A DNA stretch of 26,988 bases from a virus (lineage: Duplodnaviria > Heunggongvirae > Uroviricota > Caudoviricetes): the IMG/VR virus record IMGVR_UViG_2698536339_000014, positions 1-26,988 of that record; one strand, 5' to 3'. The notes below the pieces were generated by a model. That model did no database searches. It saw only the letters and a program-made list of their open reading frames with translations, and was not told the origin of the DNA. Numbering within the stretch: the stretch's first letter is position 1; the number at the start of each line of letters is the position of its first letter. Shown one piece after another: positions 13,223 through 26,988 of this stretch. The translations under genes and the position numbers were made by a program.

Positions 13223-14518
13223 ATGACTCTCAAAGAAGGGCAGTTAGTTACTTACGCTATCGATGAAATCATCGAAACCGTCCAGAACCTGACGCCAATG
13301 GCGTCCAAAGTGACAAAATACACCCCTCCGGCAGAATCCATGCAGCGTTCAAGCAACACCGTGTGGATGCCTGTTGAGCAGGAAGCGCCAACTCAGACTG
13401 GCTGGGATTTAACTGGCAACGCAACCGGGATTCTGGAGCTGTCCGTGAAATGCAACATGGGCGATCCGGATAACGATTTCTTCGAGCTTCGTGCAGATGA
13501 CCTGCGTGATGAGCGTTCTTACCGTCGCCGAATCCAGGCATCTGCCAAAAAACTGGCGAATAACATTGAGTCAGCGATTGCCAAACAGGCAACTGAAATG
13601 GGCTCGCTTGTTGTTCACGATACCCGCGCAATTGGTCCATCTACTGGCCTGTCTGGCTGGGATTTTGTGTCTGATGCAGAGCGCCTGATGTTCTCCCGAG
13701 AACTCAACCGCGACATGGGAATCAGTTACTTCCTGAACCCTGACGATTACCGCAAAGCAGGCCGCAACCTGGTAGATGGTGACATCTTCGGGCGCGTTCC
13801 TGAAGACACGTATCGCAACGGTACTATTCAGCGTCAGATTGCTGGCTTTGATGAAATTCTTCGCTCACCGAAACTTCCGGCAGTTACCAAGTCAACCGCT
13901 ACTGGTGTAACTGTTTCTGGTGCGCAGAAGTTTAAGCCGCAGGCATACACTCTTGATACCGATGGTAACAAAGAGAACGTCGACAACCGTGTTGCAACGG
14001 TGACCGTATCCTCCACCACCGGGTTTAAGCGCGGCGACAAAATCAGCTTCACTGGTGTGAAATTCCTGTCTCAGATGGCGAAGAACGTGCTGACTGATGA
14101 TGCTACTTTCTCAATCACCCGTGTGATCGATGGTACTCACATCGAAATCACGCCGAAGCCGATTGCACTGGATGACGCGTCACTGACAAAAGAAGAGAAG
14201 GCTTACGCTAACGTAAACACCTCTCTTGCTGATACCACTCCGGTAAACGTTCTGAACGTGGCAACAACCACCGCTAACGTGTTCTGGGCTGATGACTCAA
14301 TCCGTCTGCTGTCTCAGCCGATCCCGGTAACCCATGAACTGTTTGCTGGTATGAAAACGTCTTCCTTCAGCATTCCTGGCATTGGTGTTAACGGCATCTT
14401 CGCAACGCAGGGTGATATCAACACTCTGTCTGGTAAGTGCCGTATTGCTGTGTGGTATTCAGCATGTGCTGTACGACCAGAGGCAATTGGTGTTGGTCTG
14501 CCTAACCAGACTGCGTGA
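13223..14518 (+). CDS. major capsid (coat) protein, P22 gp5 family
   Basis: 431 aa; collinear with P22 coat as I recall it (…QRSSNT.WMPVEQE…, …[21 protein letters not shown]…, …[18 protein letters not shown]… motifs). Confidence 0.95.
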
Positions 14519-14525
14519 TAACCAG

Positions 14526-14548
14526 AGGGAGCTTCGGCTCCCTTTTTT
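14526..14548 (+). terminator. intrinsic terminator or attenuator immediately after the coat gene
   Basis: AGGGAGC-TTCG-GCTCCCT perfect 7-bp stem with a tetraloop, then T6. Confidence 0.65.
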
Positions 14549-14562
14549 ATCTGGAGACAAGC

Positions 14563-14824
<262 letters not shown>

Positions 14825-14847
<23 letters not shown>

Positions 14848-15325
14848 TTTAGTTCTTGCGGCATTACGTAAGCTCGGTGTGGCATCAAATGCCACGTTAA
14901 CCGATGTCGAACCGCAGTCTATGGAAGATGGCGTCAACGACCTTGAAATGATGATGGCTGAATGGCTTGGCGGTGATGTGTCACCTGGCATCAACGTTGG
15001 CTACATTTTTGCTGATGCAGATATCGCTCCGGATCCGGGAGATGAGCACGGCTTATCAAATAACGCTATCAATGCCGTCATTTTCAACCTTGCCTGCCGC
15101 ATTGCTCCAGATTATGCGCTGGAAGCGTCTGCAAAACTTATAACCACTGCCAGATACGGGAAAGAGCGACTCGTCAAACTGTCTGCAATGGACAGAGCAA
15201 AAGCCGCTAAATGTAAGTCCGGTTATCCAAACCGTATGCCTGTTGGTAGCGGTAACCAGTTGGCGAAGTGGAACGGTTGGAGTTACTTCCACCGGAAGGA
15301 ACCTTGCGATAACGGGAGCGAATAA
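14825..15325 (+). CDS. tail accessory / portal-closure protein (P22 gp4-like)
   Basis: 166 aa, same as P22 gp4; [33 protein letters not shown] matches the recalled gp4 N-terminus; the ORF track start at 14702 is an extension through the repeat. Confidence 0.85.
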
Positions 15326-18751: not shown

Positions 18752-20083
18752 ATGGCTACTTGGCAAGGAACAAACGGCGGATTGTTGGCTGGTATCGGCG
18801 GCGTCAACTCAAACGCTCCGAGCGTAAATGACATCGGCAATACGCTTCAGCTTATCAGGCAGAACAATGATATTGAGCGTTCAGGCGCTAACAATGTTGG
18901 GCTGACTGCTTTGCAAGGCCTTTCAGGTATTGCGGGGGTGTTTCAGCAGGAAAAGCAGGCTCAGCGGCAGAAAGAATTTCAGCAGGCGTACGCTAATGCT
19001 TATGCGTCTGGTGATCGCGGTGCTTTGCGTCAGTTGGCTACTCAATATCCAGACCAGATTGAATCCGTTCGTAAAGGCATGGGATTCATTGATGAAGAGC
19101 AGCGTAATTCTATCGGCACCTTAGCGGCTGGCGCACGCCTTGCGTCATCGTCTCCAGAAGCAATGCAATCATGGCTGCAAAACAACGCCGGTGAGTTAGC
19201 TCGTGTTGGCGTTAATCCTCATGACGTCGCTCAGATGTACCAACAGAACCCGCGGCAGTTCGGCGAATTTGTCGATCACCTGGGGATGAACAGTCTCGGG
19301 CCCGAAAAATACTTTGACCTACAGGATAAAATGCAGGGTCGCCAGGTTACCATGCGCGGTCAGGATCTGGATTCGCAAACCGCCGCTCGGAATCAGGCAA
19401 TCACAATGCGCGGACAAGATATCCAGGCGAATTTAGGTCAGCAGCGCATTAATCTGGACGCAGAAACAAACCGCATTAACAACGAAAATAAGCGCCTTGA
19501 CCGGATGCTATCAGCAGAAACTAACGACCTGAAGCGCCAGGAAATACAGAGCCGCATAGCAGCCAACAACCAGCAGTTGCAGCAGAAGCAACAAGCGCTA
19601 AATGATGGCTACAAAGACGGCATCAACACCCTCACAACCAGCATGTTCACTCTGAACGATATCGTTAGTTCTCCTTCACTTAAGAGCATTACAGGCTTAC
19701 GTGGAGTAATCCCCAACGTTCCAGGCTCACAGGCTGCAGACACTCAGGCACGACTTGATACCTTTAAATCACAAGCATACCTGACAGCGGTTCAGGCCAT
19801 GCGAGGCATGGGCGCACTTTCTGATGCCGAGGGCAAAAAGCTCGACCAGGCTGTTGGTTCGCTGCAGAACTCGCAGAGCGAGGAGTCCTTTCGTCGCAAC
19901 GCTGGCGTCATCCTGAACACGCTCAACCAGAAGCGTAATGAGGCGGTTGGTAAGTACGTTCAGCAAAACGGTATCAAGCGAGTGGAAGCGCCTCAGGCTT
20001 CTATAGATTACCTGAAGCAGCACCCCGAGCTGTCAATCGACTTCATTAATCGCTACGGATATCTTCCATCTTTGGGGCAGTAA
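18752..20083 (+). CDS. ejection protein (P22 gp20-like)
   Basis: 443 aa; position and composition. Confidence 0.7.
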   Translation: MATWQGTNGGLLAGIGGVNSNAPSVNDIGNTLQLIRQNNDIERSGANNVGLTALQGLSGIAGVFQQEKQAQRQKEFQQAYANAYASGDRGALRQLATQYPDQIESVRKGMGFIDEEQRNSIGTLAAGARLASSSPEAMQSWLQNNAGELARVGVNPHDVAQMYQQNPRQFGEFVDHLGMNSLGPEKYFDLQDKMQGRQVTMRGQDLDSQTAARNQAITMRGQDIQANLGQQRINLDAETNRINNENKRLDRMLSAETNDLKRQEIQSRIAANNQQLQQKQQALNDGYKDGINTLTTSMFTLNDIVSSPSLKSITGLRGVIPNVPGSQAADTQARLDTFKSQAYLTAVQAMRGMGALSDAEGKKLDQAVGSLQNSQSEESFRRNAGVILNTLNQKRNEAVGKYVQQNGIKRVEAPQASIDYLKQHPELSIDFINRYGYLPSLGQ

Positions 20084-22477
20084 ATGGCTAATTACCGTGA
20101 TTTGTTAGAGCAGGCTGGCGCACGTTACGGTGTGCCAGAAGGGTTGATGACTGCACTGGGTGCCAAGGAGTCTTCTTACAACCCTGCCGCAGTAAGCTCC
20201 GCCGGGGCTGTAGGATTGACTCAGGTCATGCCTGGGACATGGCGTGATATGGGTTATACCGATGAGCAAATGCAAAACCCCGAATATCAGGCTGACGCTG
20301 GCGCGCGCTATCTGGCAAAGATGTACCAGCAGTTTGGTAACTGGCGTGACGCTCTTCAGGCTTATCACGACGGTCCCGGCAACGTTATGAAGGCAAAGCG
20401 TGGTGAATATACGCCAGGACCTGAAGGCCGCGGTTACGTTGATGATCGCTTTGCTCAATGGGCGGGTGACCCGGTGACAGACTCAACAGTCGAACAGCGC
20501 GCCACCTCTGCAAAGGTACATCCTCAGCAAGACCCTAACAACCCGTTTGCACAACTGGAAGCACAGTCATCCGAACAAGTATCGGCATCAGGCGTGCAGT
20601 CAGACCCAAATAATCCATTTGCTCAGATTGAGCAGCAGGCAGCCAGTCAGCAGCCACCTCAACCCGTAAGTTCTGTCGCACCGAAACCTGTTCAGCAGCA
20701 AGGCGGAATAATGTCTGACCTTGGTAATGGACTTGCTGAAACCGGGCGCGGCTTACTACAGGCAGGAATCAACGTAGCGAACATACCTGCTGAACTCACT
20801 GATGCTGTAACAAGCGCGGCGGCTTGGGCTGGCGGTAAACTCGGCATTGGCGATGGTACATATCAACCAGCACCACGAGTAACAACGCAGGGATTAGAGC
20901 AGGACTTTGGCCTTCAGCAAGGCGCGCTGACTCCACAAACGACAGAGGGAAGGGTATTTGCTGAAGCATTGCCTTACCTCACTCCTGCTGGCGTTGAGAG
21001 AGCGGCGGTACAGGCACCAACACTTGCTGGTCGAATTGCTCAGGGGGCAACTCGCCTTCTCGCAGAAAACGCAGTTGGATCACTTGCTGCAAACAGTGCG
21101 AAAGATGATGCGGAAGCACTCGCCACCGATTTAGGCGTTGGTGTGCTGGCTGGCGGTGCTATTAACGCTGCCGGACGTGGATTAGGTGCTGCTTATCGTG
21201 GTGTTCGTGGTGCTATCGCGCCAGAAGCGCAGCAGGCTATCAGATTTGCAGAGCGTGAAGGAGTTCCTCTGCACACCACAGACCTGTTACAACCAACTTC
21301 CCGCGTCGGAAAAATGGCGCAGACTACAGCAGAAAATATCCCTCTGGCTGGCACAAGCGGAATGAGAGCAACGCAACAGGAAGCGAGAAGCCAGTTGGTT
21401 CAGAGATTTGCTGATAAATTCGGGGAGTATGATCCAGCGGTTGTTATTGACAGCCTTAAAGCGAAAACATCAGGAATTCGTCGTGCTGCCGGTAATCGAC
21501 TGGAGCAGGTTCAGAATGCTATGGCTGGAGTAAACATTCAACCTGCGCGAGCAATTCAGCAGATTGATACAGAAATATCTAACCTGCAGAAGCTTGGTAA
21601 GGTTGCTGATAACGAGACTATTTCAAAACTTCAGTCATATCGTGATGAGCTTGTTCGCAATGCTGGTCCTGATGGTCCGGTCAATCTGGATTTGAAGCAA
21701 TTAAGCGATCTGCGCAGCCAGTTCAGAATGGACGTGAAGGGTGAGCGACCAGTGTTACCAAACCGTTCCGATGCTGCCATTCAGCGAGTTTACAAGGCGA
21801 TGACCGACGATATCAATGGTGCCATTGGTCAGAATCTTGGCAATGATACTCTTCGTAAATATCAGCAGGCCAATGCCGTCTACGCTGACGAAGCGGCGAA
21901 ACTAAAGAATACCAGGCTGAAGAATGTTCTCATGAAAGGCGACCTGACACCGGAAGTTGTCAACAACATGCTATTCAGCAAGAACAAATCTGAAATTAAG
22001 ACTCTGTATAACTCAGTTGGTCGTGTTGGTAGGGCGCAAATGCGCAATGGCATCATTGGAAAGGCGATGGAGAAATCAGGTGGTTCCCCTGACCAGTTCC
22101 TTCGACAGCTTAACATCCTGCAAAACCAGACTGGAATAACATTTAAGGGGCAGGACGCTGCTTATCTGAAAGGATTGAAAAACTACCTGCAATCCACGCA
22201 GCAGGCTGCAAAAGCGGCAGTAACAACACCAACAGGGCAGCAAACCATCCCGTTCATTATCGGGTATGGGACGGCAATGAACCCGGCGACAACTGGCGCA
22301 GCGGTAAGCTACGGACTTCTTACTCGCGCCTATGAGAGTGAGCCATTCAGAAATGCAATGCTCCGAATGGCAAACACCCCACGCGGATCAACATCTTTTG
22401 AGAAAGCCATGCAGCAGGCACAAAAGGCTATTAACGCTATGACGCAGGGTGCCAAGTCTGATGCGTTGTCAGAATAG
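20084..22477 (+). CDS. ejection protein (P22 gp16 position) with N-terminal lytic transglycosylase (SLT) domain
   Basis: 797 aa; SLT motifs AKESSYNP, GLTQVMP, AYHDGPGN in the first ~120 aa; long Ala/Gln-rich remainder. Confidence 0.7.
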   Translation: MANYRDLLEQAGARYGVPEGLMTALGAKESSYNPAAVSSAGAVGLTQVMPGTWRDMGYTDEQMQNPEYQADAGARYLAKMYQQFGNWRDALQAYHDGPGNVMKAKRGEYTPGPEGRGYVDDRFAQWAGDPVTDSTVEQRATSAKVHPQQDPNNPFAQLEAQSSEQVSASGVQSDPNNPFAQIEQQAASQQPPQPVSSVAPKPVQQQGGIMSDLGNGLAETGRGLLQAGINVANIPAELTDAVTSAAAWAGGKLGIGDGTYQPAPRVTTQGLEQDFGLQQGALTPQTTEGRVFAEALPYLTPAGVERAAVQAPTLAGRIAQGATRLLAENAVGSLAANSAKDDAEALATDLGVGVLAGGAINAAGRGLGAAYRGVRGAIAPEAQQAIRFAEREGVPLHTTDLLQPTSRVGKMAQTTAENIPLAGTSGMRATQQEARSQLVQRFADKFGEYDPAVVIDSLKAKTSGIRRAAGNRLEQVQNAMAGVNIQPARAIQQIDTEISNLQKLGKVADNETISKLQSYRDELVRNAGPDGPVNLDLKQLSDLRSQFRMDVKGERPVLPNRSDAAIQRVYKAMTDDINGAIGQNLGNDTLRKYQQANAVYADEAAKLKNTRLKNVLMKGDLTPEVVNNMLFSKNKSEIKTLYNSVGRVGRAQMRNGIIGKAMEKSGGSPDQFLRQLNILQNQTGITFKGQDAAYLKGLKNYLQSTQQAAKAAVTTPTGQQTIPFIIGYGTAMNPATTGAAVSYGLLTRAYESEPFRNAMLRMANTPRGSTSFEKAMQQAQKAINAMTQGAKSDALSE

Positions 22478-22641: not shown

Positions 22642-24552
22642 ATGACAGACATTACAGCCAATGTTGTAGTAAGCATGCCTTCGCAACTCTTCACTATGGC
22701 TCGTTCTTTTAAAGCCGTAGCCAATGGCAAAATTTATATCGGTAAAATTGACACGGACCCGGTAAATCCTGAAAACCAGATTCAGGTTTGTGTAGAGAAT
22801 GAAGACGGCTCTCACGTTCCTGTTTCGCAACCAATCATTATTAACGCTGCTGGTTATCCGGTATATAACGGACAGATTGCCAAGTTTGTAACCGTGCAAG
22901 GCCATTCTATGGCTGTTTATGATGCGTACGGTGCTCAGCAGTTCTATTTCCCTAATGTGCTTAAGTATGACCCTGACCAACTAAGGCCAGAGTTTGAACA
23001 GTTTAAAGCAGATCTCGCAGGAAGCGAAGGGGCAAAGAAAGTTGGCATTGGTGTGCGAACTGTTTATAACAACCTGGATGATATCAAGCACTCCGGTAAT
23101 TACGTAGACCTACAAGAGGCTATTGATATCACAAGATATCGCGACGATCTGTTAATTACTCCTGGTACATATACTGGAGAATACACTTCCGGAAACGCCA
23201 ATCTCATTGGTACCGGATATAATGTTATCTTTAAGCCAGACATTGGCAAGACAAGCATTACACTATCTGAATCATCGCGATTATGGCAATATCGCCACGC
23301 GCAGAACTTCCTTATTGAGGGAAATATTTCCACACCACAAGGAATTGGCATAGCTTTTGGATCGTCTAATCTTGATGGCCGATGGAACTTTAGGGATATT
23401 GCTTTTGACGGTCTTGATATTGGAGTTTTCAAGCCAAAAGGAAACATTGGTAATACATATAAGCATTGTAGCTATCTTGAATGCAATTACGGACACAAGG
23501 CGCAATCTGAAAATAATATGCACGCAGGTTCAGATTCATGGCAAAATTGCCACTTTGCTGGAATAAAAAAATATTGCATTTATATAAATGGAAAGATTGG
23601 AGGACCAGCACCAGGAGGTGGAATTGATGGAATAAAAATCAAGGACTGCATCATGGAACAATGCGAAGGTGGCGGTATATATTTGAATGGTAATGACCTC
23701 GCTCCTGTTGTTCCACCGGTAATTTCAAACGTTTGGTTTGAACTGGTAGCTAAAGACGAAACTGTTGATATTGATGGCGTGGTACAGAAGCCAAGGCAAC
23801 TTAAACTTGTTGATATGCCTTCTGTGGTGGCTGAGCAGTGCTATTTTAATAACATTGAACTAATAAATTCTACTTTAATAGCCAGAGGGTGCAGATTTGA
23901 TAGCGCTACTGGTATTTACGATATTCAGATTGATGATACAAGCAAGATTATTGCAAGGGATGTTGTCTGTGATGGTTACATTGGTCCTAGCATTCACGTT
24001 GAGTCGATAGCAATACAACACTTTGGAGCATTGCAGAACGTGGATATATCTTTAAGAGGCACTTCAATAAAAGGAAGGATTAAAAGGTTGCCAACTGGCG
24101 AAATTCTTAATTCAGAGTCATTTACAGGTGATGGTCCATGGCAGTTTTTAGGAACTGGCACCGTTGATGGCTCAAGCGTGTCTGACGGATCGTTATCTGA
24201 TAAATGTGCACAGGTAAACATTCCAGCCGGTTACACGATATCATTGAATATTTCACCAGCTAACATAGCTAAGTTTTACCATGTTGTTTGGGGATGTAGC
24301 ATTAAACTTGTATCAGGTGATGTTACAGGATCGTTCTCAGGTGATACAGATCAGCTTGGCAACATATACACCTCTACAGGTGAATGGGTACACACATTTG
24401 GAGTAGGGAGAGCAGTAAAATCAGGCGCAGTAAAGTTAACATTGAAAACAACATCTGGATGTGTAGTTAGGTTAAATGACTATTTTGTTTGTCAATTCAT
24501 TAAATCACAAGATGCTTATGATTTTGCAAATAGCAGAATGTCTATAGAATAA
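22642..24552 (+). CDS. tailspike: P22 gp9-type head-binding domain fused to a divergent receptor-binding domain
   Basis: First ~115 aa ([11 protein letters not shown]...KYDPDQ) match the recalled P22 gp9 N-terminal domain; the remainder is AT-rich, Gly/Asn-rich and beta-helix-like with no P22 similarity. Confidence 0.9.
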
Positions 24553-24600: not shown

Positions 24601-25731
24601 TTATTTTACTGAATTTCTTAAAATAAAGCCTTCTCTGCAAGATTTTACTTTAAAACGAAGAAAAAAACTCTCAAATAAGTAAAATGATGCTATTGAAACT
24701 GCATATGATACAATAAATGAAGCAGCTATGTAAGTGAATCCATCAGTTGTGATTCCTACAAATGAAAACATTTTTCTTACTATTGAAAAACATAGCAAGT
24801 GCCACATGTAAAGGCCGTAACTTATATTTCCTGTAAATCTAAGGAATTTTAAGTTAAATATCTTGTTACAAGTCGTTATAAATAGTTGTAAAATATTGCT
24901 GTCTGTTGCTGTCTGTTGCTGTCTGTTGCTGTCTGTCATTTTTCCTGATGAATAATATAAGAACCAAATAATTGATGAGAATGTCATCCCTAATGATGTA
25001 AATAGGTATAATCCCTTGCCAACCCACTGCTCTGGATGCCAAAAATTATTAATCCCAATATTTATAACGCCATATGCAGTAACAATAGAACCAACTATAA
25101 ATGTCAACATGGCTATTTGTGGTGCTTTATTGCTATCCTTTATATGAGCAAAGATAGCGCCTAGGACAAGCATATCAACACAACTGATAAGAGTTACGTT
25201 AGTTATATACGGATTACCTCCAGACATATTGAATATAAAATATCTAGAAGCTAGTGAGATTATCACAAGAAATACAAAAAAACATACTTCCTTTGGTGGG
25301 CGAATAAAAAATATTACAATAGGCCAAATCCAATAGAATTGTTCTTCTATAGCTAGAGACCATGTGTGTCCAAGTATTCCTGGTGTTGTTATGTTATTAC
25401 CAATGTAATAGTTTTGTAAGTAGGTGACAAACCAAGAATAACCTTCCGTACTTCCTCCCATTGATTTAACTATTACAAAATTAACCGCAAGGTATAGATA
25501 GAATAGAGGAAATATTCTCAACGATCTATTTATTAGAAACTTTTTAATATACCAGGCAAATCTATACTTCCTGTCTTCCTCAAGAATTGATGTGATCAGG
25601 AACCCCGAAAGGCAAAAGAATAATGGAACACCAGCCCACCCCAAAGATGCCCAAGGTATATTAGAATGAAATAACATGACCATTATGACGGCAATTCCTC
25701 TAGCTCCATCAAGAGAAGTAACGTGTTTCAT
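24601..25731 (-). CDS. acyltransferase-3 family integral membrane protein (candidate O-antigen acetyltransferase, Oac/OafA-like)
   Basis: 376 aa; N-terminal LDGARGIAVIMVMLFH and C-terminal FTGNISYGLYMWH motifs; about 10 hydrophobic segments; strongly AT-rich; sits between tailspike and int, as oac does in Sf6. Confidence 0.8.
   Translation of the reverse strand: MKHVTSLDGARGIAVIMVMLFHSNIPWASLGWAGVPLFFCLSGFLITSILEEDRKYRFAWYIKKFLINRSLRIFPLFYLYLAVNFVIVKSMGGSTEGYSWFVTYLQNYYIGNNITTPGILGHTWSLAIEEQFYWIWPIVIFFIRPPKEVCFFVFLVIISLASRYFIFNMSGGNPYITNVTLISCVDMLVLGAIFAHIKDSNKAPQIAMLTFIVGSIVTAYGVINIGINNFWHPEQWVGKGLYLFTSLGMTFSSIIWFLYYSSGKMTDSNRQQQTATDSNILQLFITTCNKIFNLKFLRFTGNISYGLYMWHLLCFSIVRKMFSFVGITTDGFTYIAASFIVSYAVSIASFYLFESFFLRFKVKSCREGFILRNSVK
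24898..24937 (-). repeat. 10-bp tandem repeat x4 (GCTGTCTGTT on +; last unit GCTGTCTGTC) inside the acyltransferase coding sequence
   Basis: Counted directly in the sequence; encodes TDSNRQQQTATDS in the gene frame. Confidence 0.95.
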
Positions 25732-25821
25732 TGTATTTTCCGATTATTTTGTGTGATTGTTAATGAGAACCTTGACAGTATACACGTGATCTACTTATAC
25801 CATAAACTGGTATGTCATTTT

Positions 25822-26988
25822 TCATGAACTAACTTTAAACTTCTCATCAAGCCAGTCCGCCCACCACTGCATCATTTCTCTGCGCTTATCGAGATACTGA
25901 GCATGGTTGTAAATCCCGCGCACAGATCCGCCGTTGGCATGTGCCAGTTGCACTTCAATAGCATCAGCAGGCCATTCGTGCTCGTTCATAATCGTGCTGA
26001 ATTCATGCCTGAATCCGTGACCGCTTTCCAGACCCTCATAGCCGATTTGTTTGATCACAAGCAATACCGCGTTCTCGCAGATTGGCTTCTTCTTATCGTT
26101 GCGCCCGGCAAAAACAAACTCTGATACTGGTTTAGTGATTGAGCTTAGCGTAGTGAGAAGTTCAACTACCTGGTCTGACATAGGAACCACATGAATTTTG
26201 CGTCCCTTCATCACACTGGCGTCGATGGTGATAATCCTGTTTTCAAAATCGACGTTCTTCCATAGCATGGAACGAAGCTCTTTCGTTCTTAGGGCAGTGT
26301 AGCGTAAAACCTTGGTGGCAATGAGCGATACGATACTTCCTGAAAATGTTGCCAGTGCTTTATTGAATGCCGGGATCTGGTCTGCAGGAAGAAACGGGAA
26401 GTTCTTCTTGCGGTACCCCTTCATGGCGTCAGCAAGGTCAGGTGCCGGGTTATATTTAGCCCTACCAGTGACAATAGCGTAACGGAAAACCTCGCCGCAT
26501 CTTCTGCGGGCTTTGTTGGCTCGCTCCATTGCACCGCGATCTTCAAACCTGCGGATTACTTCCAGCAGTTGCATCGGCTCAATATCCTGAATTTCAAGGC
26601 CGCCAATGATAGGTAAAATGTCGTCGTCAAACATTTTGGCAAGTTCAGTCGCATATCCTACAGACCAGACTTGCTTCTTGTGCTCGTACCATTCCTTGTA
26701 AATGGCGCTAAAGGAATTGTTGTTAGACGAAGCCTTTTTCGCTTTTACCGGATCGATGCCAACCGAGATGTCTTTCCTCGCAGTCCATGCTTTATCCCTT
26801 GCCTCTTGCAAAGTCATAAGCGGATATTTTCCTACGGTCAGGATTTTCTCCTTACCGTCAATCTTGTAGCGAAGCTGCCATACCTTTTTCCCTGACACAG
26901 GGACATAAAGGTACAGGCCATTACCATCGAGTAGGCGGTATGGTTTTTCTTTCGGCTTTGCTGCTTCAATCTGCTTAACGGTGAGCAT
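25822..26988 (-). CDS. int: tyrosine integrase (P4/P22-type, N-terminal arm-binding domain)
   Basis: 388 aa; HGFRHEF...GIYNHAQYL catalytic region; start codon is the last 3 nt of the window (reverse strand). Confidence 0.9.
   Translation of the reverse strand: MLTVKQIEAAKPKEKPYRLLDGNGLYLYVPVSGKKVWQLRYKIDGKEKILTVGKYPLMTLQEARDKAWTARKDISVGIDPVKAKKASSNNNSFSAIYKEWYEHKKQVWSVGYATELAKMFDDDILPIIGGLEIQDIEPMQLLEVIRRFEDRGAMERANKARRRCGEVFRYAIVTGRAKYNPAPDLADAMKGYRKKNFPFLPADQIPAFNKALATFSGSIVSLIATKVLRYTALRTKELRSMLWKNVDFENRIITIDASVMKGRKIHVVPMSDQVVELLTTLSSITKPVSEFVFAGRNDKKKPICENAVLLVIKQIGYEGLESGHGFRHEFSTIMNEHEWPADAIEVQLAHANGGSVRGIYNHAQYLDKRREMMQWWADWLDEKFKVSS

What the first reader, a model, noticed from the sequence alone, without database searches (positions are those of the whole stretch)
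24898..24937. Decanucleotide tandem repeat inside the acyltransferase ORF: candidate slipped-strand phase switch
Four copies of a 10-bp unit (40 bp, not a multiple of 3) lie in-frame in a predicted loop between the membrane core and the conserved C-terminal GNISYGLYMWH motif. Gaining or losing one unit would shift the frame and remove the last ~100 residues; only 1, 4 or 7 copies keep the frame. Repeats of this kind are the classic mechanism of stochastic ON/OFF switching of surface-modification genes, which would make the phage-conferred O-antigen modification heterogeneous in a lysogen population. I do not know of this being described for a tailspike-linked acyltransferase in a P22-like phage.
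Basis: partly seen in the sequence, partly recalled or inferred. Interest (0 to 1): 0.75.

Follow-up and report, generated by a model that had tools for sequence, protein, structure and literature searches.

The report
Repeat-driven on/off switch in prophage acyltransferase
A 10-base repeat inside a prophage gene for a membrane sugar-acylating enzyme gains and loses copies in natural E. coli, giving intact and truncated versions of the gene on otherwise identical DNA; this is a second example, with an unrelated enzyme, of the repeat switch known from the K1 capsule gene neuO.

Summary
Window 24896-24936 holds 4.1 perfect copies of TTGCTGTCTG (CAGACAGCAA on the gene strand). They lie inside a 376-aa AT3 acyltransferase gene (24601-25731, minus strand), between the integrase and the tailspike of a P22-like prophage at argW.

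On the window's exact protein backbone, public E. coli assemblies hold alleles with 3, 5, 6 and 8 copies (truncated) and 4 and 7 copies (intact). Three further allele series (2-9 units) mix intact and truncated forms in the same way. At DNA level, 3-, 6- and 8-unit alleles show no substitutions in about 4.4 kb outside the tract. So do a 3-unit and a 4-unit allele. Truncated alleles carry no other lesion.

The tract is an insertion absent from all homologues. It sits in the loop before the last two helices, which hold 8 of 33 invariant residues.

Switching rate, reversibility within a culture, the acceptor sugar and expression were not measured.

It is not without precedent. neuO of prophage CUS-3 occupies the same slot, next to a 100% identical integrase, and switches through a 7-base repeat. 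This is a new member of a known kind: a different enzyme family, a 10-base unit, mid-gene, and few copies.

The parts
24896..24936 (-). Decanucleotide tract: (CAGACAGCAA)x4 on the gene strand, plus one extra matching base. This is the hypermutable element.
   Evidence: TRF; sequence. Copy number is 2-9 units in relatives.
24601..25731 (-). AT3-family membrane acyltransferase gene (376 aa) that carries the tract at codons 266-279.
   Evidence: Pfam PF01757, E 1.4e-23, residues 5-348. AlphaFold model with mean pLDDT 94.4. GC 0.30-0.35, against 0.46-0.55 in the phage structural genes.
24601..24895 (-). Coding part downstream of the tract (last 96 residues plus stop codon, the last two transmembrane helices), read only when the tract length is 1 mod 3. 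It holds the SxxxY motif (S304...Y308), H311, S349 and E354.
   Evidence: 8 of 33 invariant columns among 55 homologues lie here. The AT3 literature places SxxxY in TMH9 and the acetyl-CoA entrance at TMH9/10. This DNA is identical in truncated and intact alleles.
24876..24878 (-). TAA stop reached when tract length is 0 mod 3 (for example 3 or 6 copies on the window backbone); tail ...IFYNYL*.
   Evidence: Simulation. Natural proteins P0150 and P0153 end this way.
24866..24868 (-). TAA stop reached when tract length is 2 mod 3 (for example 5 or 8 copies); tail ...YFTTIYNDL*.
   Evidence: Simulation. Natural proteins P0149 and P0152 end this way. It is also the end of the 58-aa alternative-frame ORF listed.
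22642..24552 (+). Tailspike (636 aa, P22 head-binding domain at the N-terminus), convergent with the acyltransferase; it forms the linked receptor module.
   Evidence: Pfam PF09008, E 3e-66. Always adjacent in related loci.
25822..26988 (-). Integrase (IntS/CUS-3 type), directly upstream of the acyltransferase and co-oriented with it.
   Evidence: Pfam integrase domains. 383/383 residues identical to the CUS-3 integrase. Next to tRNA-Arg argW in genomes.

Best explanation
The tract is a mutational on/off switch (a contingency locus) in a cargo gene of a P22-like prophage. Shown: the decamer array gains and loses whole units much faster than the surrounding DNA accumulates point changes. Because 10 is not a multiple of 3, only one unit number in three keeps the reading frame. 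All other numbers stop translation 6 or 9 codons after the tract and delete the last two transmembrane helices, which hold invariant residues. Both kinds of allele occur in natural E. coli, and the truncated ones carry no other damage, so a further change in unit number can restore the gene. Inferred: the changes arise by slipped-strand mispairing during replication. A lysogen population is therefore mixed for the enzyme. The enzyme acylates the same surface polysaccharide, probably the O antigen, that the neighbouring tailspike recognises. On that view switching trades protection against related phages for a different antigenic or phage-receptor surface.
For: (1) Window backbone, exact-sequence look-ups: 3 copies (281 aa), 5 and 6 (291 aa) and 8 (301 aa) are truncated; 7 (386 aa) is intact. 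All exist in public E. coli assemblies beside the 4-copy allele. Contig counts are 3, 23-24, 6, 1, 2 and 1 for 3 to 8 copies, a distribution centred on 4 with single-step neighbours the commonest.
(2) A second backbone has 3 and 6 units intact and 4, 5 and 8 truncated. Two more series use the C-variant unit and run from 2 to 9 units.
(3) In the 265 residues before the tract, only 4 positions vary across 28 proteins, while one identical backbone carries 11 tract alleles.
(4) DNA: L056, L058 and L061 (3, 6 and 8 units) have 0 substitutions in about 4.43 kb outside the tract. L057 (3 units, truncated) against L059/L060 (4 units) has 0 in 4468 nt, and 2 in 7.87 kb over the longer loci.
(5) Truncated alleles have N- and C-terminal coding DNA identical to intact alleles. 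The listed cluster members show no other kind of truncation apart from contig-end partials.
(6) All 12 homologues at 40-58% identity lack the tract.
(7) 8 of 33 invariant columns lie after the tract, including the TMH9 SxxxY motif that lines the AT3 cavity.
(8) The same cargo slot in CUS-3 holds the experimentally established repeat-switched neuO.
Against: No switching rate and no within-culture heterogeneity were measured. With only 2-9 units the rate may be far below that of neuO (up to 93 copies). The 4-copy allele is shared by prophages whose integrase region differs by about 30 substitutions, so it can persist for a long time. About 113 of roughly 145 contigs tallied are in frame, and the 3-unit alleles with variant flanking units look stable, so many lineages may be effectively locked on. 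Contig counts are not independent isolates, and only about 38 of 135 cluster members were seen. Acceptor substrate, expression in lysogens and the inactivity of the truncated protein are all inferred; no convincing promoter was found.
Confidence: 0.8

Rival explanations
1. Neutral, degenerative microsatellite. The tract is merely slippage-prone DNA in a dispensable cargo gene. Frameshifted alleles are pseudogenes on the way to loss, and nothing selects for switching.
For: Some carriers are decaying prophage remnants with IS elements and disrupted tailspikes (L001, L007, L010). Among distinct alleles with 4 or more units, about 9 are in frame and 13 out of frame, close to the one-in-three expected without selection (my tally).
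Against: In frame-restorable form, the gene is intact even in the decayed remnants. By contig count, in-frame alleles dominate (about 45 to 29 for arrays of 4 or more units). Truncated alleles carry no secondary lesions. In-frame alleles at 3, 4, 6, 7 and 9 units on the same backbones imply the frame was either kept or regained repeatedly. The established neuO switch shows the same genomic signature, with 65.6% of complete genomes off.
Confidence: 0.15
2. In-frame length tuning. The main role of the repeat is to vary the length of a cytoplasmic loop (10-30 residues) and so modulate enzyme activity, as repeat number does for NeuO; frameshifts are a by-product.
For: In-frame alleles with 3, 4, 6, 7 and 9 units all exist. 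The loop is the least confident internal segment of the model (pLDDT 77-82). neuO repeat-region length is reported to raise NeuO catalytic activity.
Against: Homologues work with a short loop and no tract. A 10-nt unit makes two of every three single-unit steps destructive, a poor design for length tuning. No activity data exist. This reading does not exclude the on/off switch.
Confidence: 0.1
3. Assembly or sequencing artefact. The different copy numbers come from mis-assembled short reads, not from real alleles.
For: Logan (k=31) contigs break inside the array after three units (L050-L055, L062-L064), so the tract does disturb some assemblers. One allele (P0155) is known from Logan only.
Against: The Logan assembler breaks at the array rather than collapsing it. 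Every other truncated allele has NCBI assembly sources, several on 2-6 contigs. Expansions to 6-9 units cannot come from collapse. The 9-unit allele is in a complete genome. Arrays are at most 94 nt, shorter than typical reads. Differences are always whole units.
Confidence: 0.02

Closest known systems
neuO of prophage CUS-3 (E. coli K1 polysialic acid O-acetyltransferase, heptanucleotide 'poly-psi' repeat)
   Same: A cargo gene of a P22-like (Lederbergvirus) prophage at argW, in the slot between integrase and tailspike. The integrase is 100% identical to the window's. An acetyl/acyl-transferase for a surface polysaccharide. An intragenic tandem repeat whose unit is not a multiple of 3, so one copy number in three is ON. 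ON and OFF alleles both occur in sequenced genomes. The repeat codes for a polar peptide of variable length.
   Different: NeuO is a soluble left-handed beta-helix enzyme, not an AT3 membrane protein. Its unit is 7 nt (AAGACTC) rather than 10 nt. Its repeat starts 2 nt after the start codon rather than at codon 266. It has 2-93 copies against 2-9 here. neuO is co-oriented with the tailspike, whereas this gene is co-oriented with int. Its acceptor is the K1 capsule; the acceptor here is unknown.
Haemophilus influenzae oafA (AT3 LOS O-acetyltransferase with tetranucleotide repeats)
   Same: An AT3-family enzyme that modifies LPS/LOS and is switched on and off by an intragenic simple-sequence repeat.
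   Different: A chromosomal gene of a naturally repeat-rich species, with a 4-nt unit, and not phage-borne. E. coli has few known repeat-switched genes (my own knowledge).
Salmonella Typhimurium oafA (O:5 abequose acetylase) 7-bp repeat contraction
   Same: An enterobacterial AT3 O-antigen acetyltransferase with a low-copy, non-triplet tandem repeat inside the ORF. Loss of one unit gives a premature stop. Such alleles arise quickly under IgA selection and are found in deposited genomes.
   Different: A 7-bp unit in an AT3-SGNH fusion protein, not in the int-tailspike slot of a P22-like prophage. The source describes contraction; it gives no allele series comparable to 2-9 units.
Phage O-antigen acetyltransferases Oac (Sf6) and GtrC (BTP1), and Salmonella OafB
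   Same: AT3 enzymes carried by P22-like phages beside the tailspike that modify the phage's own O-antigen receptor. OafB/GtrC-family expression is phase variable.
   Different: Only about 26% identity to BTP1 GtrC. Phase variation there is epigenetic (Dam methylation of the promoter), not repeat slippage. No tract is present in any homologue aligned.

Membership tests
Simple-sequence-repeat contingency locus (slipped-strand phase variation) | Perfect tandem repeat inside the ORF, or in its promoter | tested here: met
   4.1 perfect copies at codons 266-279.
Simple-sequence-repeat contingency locus (slipped-strand phase variation) | Unit length not divisible by 3, so unit gain or loss shifts the frame and truncates the product | tested here: met
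   10-nt unit. Simulated alleles stop 6 or 9 codons after the tract unless n = 1, 4, 7 or 10.
Simple-sequence-repeat contingency locus (slipped-strand phase variation) | Copy number polymorphic among near-identical strains, changing faster than point substitution | tested here: met
   3, 6 and 8 units, and 3 against 4 units, with 0 substitutions in about 4.4 kb. 11 tract alleles on one 265-aa backbone. Exact-backbone look-ups.
Simple-sequence-repeat contingency locus (slipped-strand phase variation) | Both ON and OFF alleles in nature, with OFF alleles otherwise intact and so reversible in principle | tested here: met
   Truncated proteins of 278, 281, 288, 291, 298 and 301 aa beside intact ones of 373, 376, 383, 386 and 393 aa. 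Coding DNA outside the tract is identical.
Simple-sequence-repeat contingency locus (slipped-strand phase variation) | High-frequency, reversible switching within a clonal culture | not testable with these tools
   Needs fragment analysis, deep amplicon sequencing or a fluctuation assay; no read-level data were available.
Simple-sequence-repeat contingency locus (slipped-strand phase variation) | The switch changes a phenotype (surface structure, phage or antibody sensitivity) | not testable with these tools
   Only inferred, from loss of the last two helices and 8 invariant residues.
AT3 acyltransferase family (Pfam PF01757) | Significant match to the family profile | tested here: met
   83.9 bits against a cut-off of 31, residues 5-348.
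AT3 acyltransferase family (Pfam PF01757) | Ten-helix membrane fold with the conserved catalytic His in helix 1 and SxxxY in helix 9 | tested here: met
   The model (pLDDT 94.4) has helices in the expected order. H22, S304 and Y308 are invariant among 55 homologues. The motifs are as described for OafB. No solved structure exists to compare with.
AT3 acyltransferase family (Pfam PF01757) | Acylates the O antigen specifically | not tested
   Inferred only from linkage to an O-antigen-type tailspike and from analogy with Oac and GtrC.
neuO / CUS-3 system | P22-like prophage at argW with the gene in the int-tailspike slot | tested here: met
   yfdC, tRNA-Arg, intS, acyltransferase, tailspike. CUS-3 map. 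Integrase 383/383 identical.
neuO / CUS-3 system | NeuO-type left-handed beta-helix O-acetyltransferase | tested here: not met
   The protein is AT3; it has no other Pfam family hit.
neuO / CUS-3 system | Heptanucleotide AAGACTC repeat at the 5' end of the gene | tested here: not met
   The unit is CAGACAGCAA, at gene nucleotides 797-836.

The most novel reading that the evidence does not exclude
The int-tailspike cargo slot of argW-integrating P22-like prophages repeatedly gives rise to phage-borne contingency loci. Two unrelated acetyl/acyl-transferases (NeuO, and this AT3 enzyme) next to identical integrases have each acquired their own frame-shifting repeat. On this reading the phage makes modification of its own receptor stochastic. 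This would be the first repeat-switched AT3 surface-polysaccharide modification in E. coli and an unusually long (10-nt) contingency unit. In-frame loop length might additionally tune activity.
Probability: 0.45. Interest if true: 0.7.

Novelty: new member of a known kind. Interest (0 to 1): 0.6.

Why it matters
E. coli is usually regarded as poor in repeat-based contingency genes, and neuO is the textbook exception. A second example in the same prophage slot, with an unrelated enzyme, suggests that temperate phages themselves evolve stochastic control of receptor-modifying cargo. It also has practical consequences:
- In carriers of this prophage, surface acylation, and with it serological typing, phage susceptibility and immune recognition, may differ between sister cells and between near-identical isolates.
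- Annotation pipelines will report the gene as truncated, or possibly as a pseudogene, in roughly a fifth of carriers, although it is one slippage event away from function.
- k=31 assemblies break at this site.
The allele series found here (3-8 copies on one backbone) gives ready-made natural material for testing.

Tried and rejected
1. Megablast of the gene against 50,697 phage records gave no match. tblastn found only distant AT3 genes at or below 31% identity. No cultured phage carries this gene.
2. Flank-pattern scans of one-genome-per-species contigs and of JGI metagenomes found nothing. IMG/VR gave one contig.
3. Only 2 of 5,426 complete E. coli genomes carry the gene, so complete genomes alone could not give an allele survey.
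I worked around this by looking up the window's own tailspike.
5. Foldseek of the model against the PDB gave no significant match (best E 0.07), so no solved AT3 structure was available to fix the sidedness of the loop. The cytoplasmic assignment rests on helix order, the published 10-helix topology and my reading of the positive-inside rule.
6. The promoter scan gave only weak consensus matches, too close to the start codon to be convincing, and no terminator between the convergent genes. Expression is unresolved.
7. Scans for the decamer elsewhere found unrelated arrays, none linked to a related acyltransferase, so a shared origin of tract and gene elsewhere was rejected.
8. Literature searches for the unit sequence, for 'decanucleotide' with phase variation, and for an E. 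coli P22-like/argW O-antigen acetyltransferase found no description of this gene or switch. King et al. 2007 on CUS-3 was not held.
9. The host O serogroup was not determined.

Full report
**1. The observation**

Tandem Repeats Finder reports one array at 24896-24936: period 10, 4.1 copies, 100% identity, consensus TTGCTGTCTG. The raw sequence shows the same. Four exact tandem decamers need 30 matching bases, so by my own estimate about 1e-12 such arrays are expected in a 27-kb AT-rich window.

The array lies in a minus-strand ORF, 24601-25731, of 376 aa. On the gene strand the unit is CAGACAGCAA, at gene nucleotides 797-836, coding for TDSNRQQQTATDSN.

I rebuilt the gene with 0 to 12 copies. 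Only 1, 4, 7 and 10 copies stay in frame. All other numbers stop 6 or 9 codons after the tract, at TAA 24876-24878 (tail IFYNYL*) or TAA 24866-24868 (tail YFTTIYNDL*). Either stop removes the last 96 residues.

**2. The gene and its setting**

The protein matches Pfam Acyl_transf_3 (PF01757) over residues 5-348, with 83.9 bits against a cut-off of 31. Its neighbours are a 636-aa tailspike with a P22 head-binding domain (22642-24552, convergent) and a tyrosine integrase (25822-26988, upstream and co-oriented).

In E. coli genomes the order is always yfdC, tRNA-Arg (argW), intS, acyltransferase, tailspike, then the P22-type ejection proteins. The rest of the prophage is mosaic.

Over 81% of the window upstream of the tailspike (window 1-22600), the sequence is 97% identical to Enterobacteria phage IME10. 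The acyltransferase gene has 30-35% GC against 46-55% in the phage structural genes, so it is foreign cargo. The window is identical to GCA_001285445.1 contig CYEZ01000001.1 over the stretches compared.

**3. Comparative test of the switch hypothesis**

Only two complete E. coli genomes carry the gene:
- One has 4 copies.
- The other has an 11-nt variant unit, 7 perfect units and one C-variant unit. That is +51 nt, still in frame, giving 393 aa.
- An IMG/VR contig has 3 units.

A search of 5.8 billion proteins found two clusters at 97-98% identity, with 70 and 65 member sequences. Their listed members have these lengths:
- In frame: 373, 376, 383 and 393 aa.
- Truncated: 278, 288 and 298 aa.

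Every truncated protein ends in one of the two out-of-frame tails predicted from the window, or its H-for-Y or T-for-I variant on the other backbones.

Decoding the tracts gave these results:
- One 265-residue N-terminal backbone carries 11 different tract alleles.
- Another backbone carries at least 10.
- The whole 265-residue stretch varies at only four positions across 28 proteins.

I then built the proteins expected from the window's own backbone with 0 to 10 copies and looked them up by exact sequence:

| Copies | Protein | State | Contigs |
|---|---|---|---|
| 3 | 281 aa | truncated | 3 |
| 4 | 376 aa | in frame | 23-24 |
| 5 | 291 aa | truncated | 6 |
| 6 | 291 aa | truncated | 1 |
| 7 | 386 aa | in frame | 2 |
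| 8 | 301 aa | truncated | 1 |

Alleles with 0, 1, 2, 9 or 10 copies were not found. The single-step neighbours of the modal allele are the commonest variants, as expected for stepwise slippage.

The same test on a second backbone found 4, 5 and 8 units (truncated) beside 3 and 6 units (in frame).

**4. DNA-level confirmation and artefact control**

Contigs carrying the identical tailspike have acyltransferase genes of 373, 376, 383, 281 and 298 codons.

Outside the tract, the DNA compares as follows:
- L056 (3 units), L058 (6 units) and L061 (8 units, truncated, NCBI assembly GCA_965256345.1) differ at 0 of about 4,430 positions.
- L057 (3 units, truncated) differs from L059 and L060 (4 units) at 0 of 4,468 positions, and at 2 of 7,868 over the longer loci.
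- The coding DNA before and after the tract is identical in truncated and intact alleles, so the truncated alleles have no second lesion.

Logan contigs (k=31) end inside the array after three units. That assembler breaks at longer arrays rather than collapsing them. All truncated alleles but one also have NCBI assembly sources. Expansions cannot be collapse artefacts, and the 9-unit allele is in a complete genome.

**5. Why a frameshift should inactivate the enzyme**

- The tract is an insertion. All 12 homologues at 40-58% identity have a short loop with no such sequence.
- Among 55 homologues down to 29% identity, 33 columns are invariant. Eight of them lie after the tract: G301, S304, Y305, G306, Y308, H311, S349 and E354.
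- An AlphaFold model (mean pLDDT 94.4, pTM 0.92) places residues 266-280 between helix 243-261 and helices 279-292, 295-302 and 304-325. This is the least confident internal segment, at pLDDT 77-82.
- Published work on the AT3 fold describes ten helices, a catalytic His in helix 1, an SxxxY motif in helix 9 lining the cavity, and an acetyl-CoA entrance bounded by the N-terminus and helices 9 and 10.
- Here S304...Y308 is that motif, so truncated products lack it.
- From the helix order, the published topology and the basic residues in the loop, I infer that the loop is cytoplasmic. This is not shown; no solved AT3 structure exists for comparison.

**6. Most likely mechanism**

Shown:
- A hypermutable decamer tract.
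- Whole-unit changes only.
- Frame-dependent truncation.
- Intact and truncated alleles on identical DNA backgrounds.
- Recurrence on at least three backbones.

Inferred:
- The changes arise by replication slippage. From my own knowledge, loops of 10 nt are poorly corrected by mismatch repair.
- Cultures of a lysogen are mixed for the enzyme.
- The enzyme acylates the polysaccharide that the linked tailspike binds.
- Switching balances exclusion of related phages against antigenic or receptor change.

In my tally, about 113 contigs are in frame and 32 are out of frame. For arrays of 4 or more units the figures are 45 and 29. By distinct alleles with 4 or more units, about 9 are in frame and 13 are out of frame. 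These counts are not independent isolates, and only about 38 of the 135 cluster members were seen.

The pattern fits frequent excursions to OFF with longer-lived ON alleles. It does not exclude a neutral microsatellite in a dispensable gene. The 4-copy allele also occurs with integrase regions that differ by about 30 substitutions, so the tract is not changing every few generations.

**7. Comparison with what is known**

*neuO of prophage CUS-3.* This is the closest system.
- CUS-3 is P22-like and lies between dsdC and argW.
- Its record shows attL, int, neuO (19 heptanucleotide copies, so no CDS is annotated), then tailspike. That is the same slot.
- Its integrase is identical to the window's at 383 of 383 aligned residues.
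- neuO switches through AAGACTC repeats placed two nucleotides after the start codon, with 2-93 copies, and is ON only at multiples of three.
- 65.6% of 64 complete genomes are OFF.

The present gene differs in four ways:
- Enzyme family: AT3 membrane protein rather than a soluble beta-helix enzyme.
- Unit length: 10 nt rather than 7.
- Position: codon 266 rather than the 5' end.
- Copy number: 2-9, and the opposite orientation in the slot.

It therefore works like neuO but is not a member of that family.

*Other relatives in mechanism or family:*
- H. influenzae oafA is an AT3 enzyme switched by a tetranucleotide repeat.
- Salmonella oafA has a 7-bp in-ORF repeat whose contraction is selected by IgA.
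- Salmonella OafB and GtrC enzymes are switched epigenetically.
- BTP1 GtrC, the nearest phage protein, is only about 26% identical.

Searches of 8 million papers found no description of this gene, this unit, or a bacterial decanucleotide contingency repeat.

**8. Verdict**

The slipped-strand switch reading is supported by natural allele series, although rate, reversibility within a culture, substrate and phenotype remain untested. It is a new member of a known kind, not a new kind. Its main interest is the convergence with neuO in the same prophage slot and the rarity of such loci in E. coli.

Noticed in passing
window 14708-14777: Perfect hexanucleotide repeat CAGAGC x11.7, just after the P22-like coat gene (13223-14518). 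It reads as (EP)n at the C-terminus of a 110-aa ORF (14515-14847), or as (SQ)n at the N-terminus of a 207-aa ORF (14702-15325). The unit is a multiple of 3, so copy changes would alter length, not frame.
   Followed up: partly
L019 5125-5163 (Moraxella osloensis plasmid CP069435.1); also L023, L026, L031, L040 and L022: The identical decamer CAGACAGCAA forms a copy-number-variable array (2 to 6 full units plus a partial one) at one conserved Moraxella/Enhydrobacter locus. The array lies at the end of a 226-aa ORF, upstream of a 183-aa ORF; each ORF matches the Type I restriction specificity domain (Methylase_S). This looks like a repeat-switched split hsdS gene. It is unrelated to the acyltransferase. 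The 'Streptomyces cinereus' contig with the same flanks is probably contamination.
   Followed up: partly
L050-L055 and L062-L064 (Logan contigs), ends of contigs: k=31 Logan assemblies of strains carrying this module all terminate inside the array after three units. Arrays of 4 or more units therefore split the gene across contigs and produce 'partial' proteins such as P0147.
   Followed up: yes
L001 (E. coli LF4-1), L007, L010: In decayed prophage remnants, where the tailspike is disrupted (by ISEc33 and IS1 insertions in L001) or shortened (L007, L010), the acyltransferase gene is still intact and in frame with 4 copies. This parallels the retention of neuO in decaying CUS-3-like prophages.
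   Followed up: partly
window 22642-24552 (residues 128-635 of the tailspike): The receptor-binding part of the tailspike is 66% identical to a tail fibre of the 72-kb lytic Escherichia phages Bp4, PD38 and vB_EcoS_Uz-1, and 39-40% identical to fibres of several other coliphages including LM33_P1. Receptor modules appear to be shared between temperate and lytic phages that may meet the same acylated surface.
   Followed up: no
window 24601-25731 against 20000-22400: The acyltransferase gene has 30-35% GC against 46-55% in the neighbouring phage genes, typical of imported polysaccharide-modification cargo.
   Followed up: no
window 25732-25821: The 90-nt spacer between the integrase stop and the acyltransferase start has only weak promoter-like matches that end 0-4 nt from the ATG, and a weak ribosome-binding site. 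There is no terminator-like site between the convergent acyltransferase and tailspike genes. How the gene is transcribed in a lysogen is unclear.
   Followed up: partly
protein accessions: The 6-copy truncated allele WP_089529979.1 has an accession number adjacent to WP_089529980.1, the IntS protein of strain LF4-1, which carries 4 copies. This hints that a genome with the same integrase carried the OFF allele.
   Followed up: no
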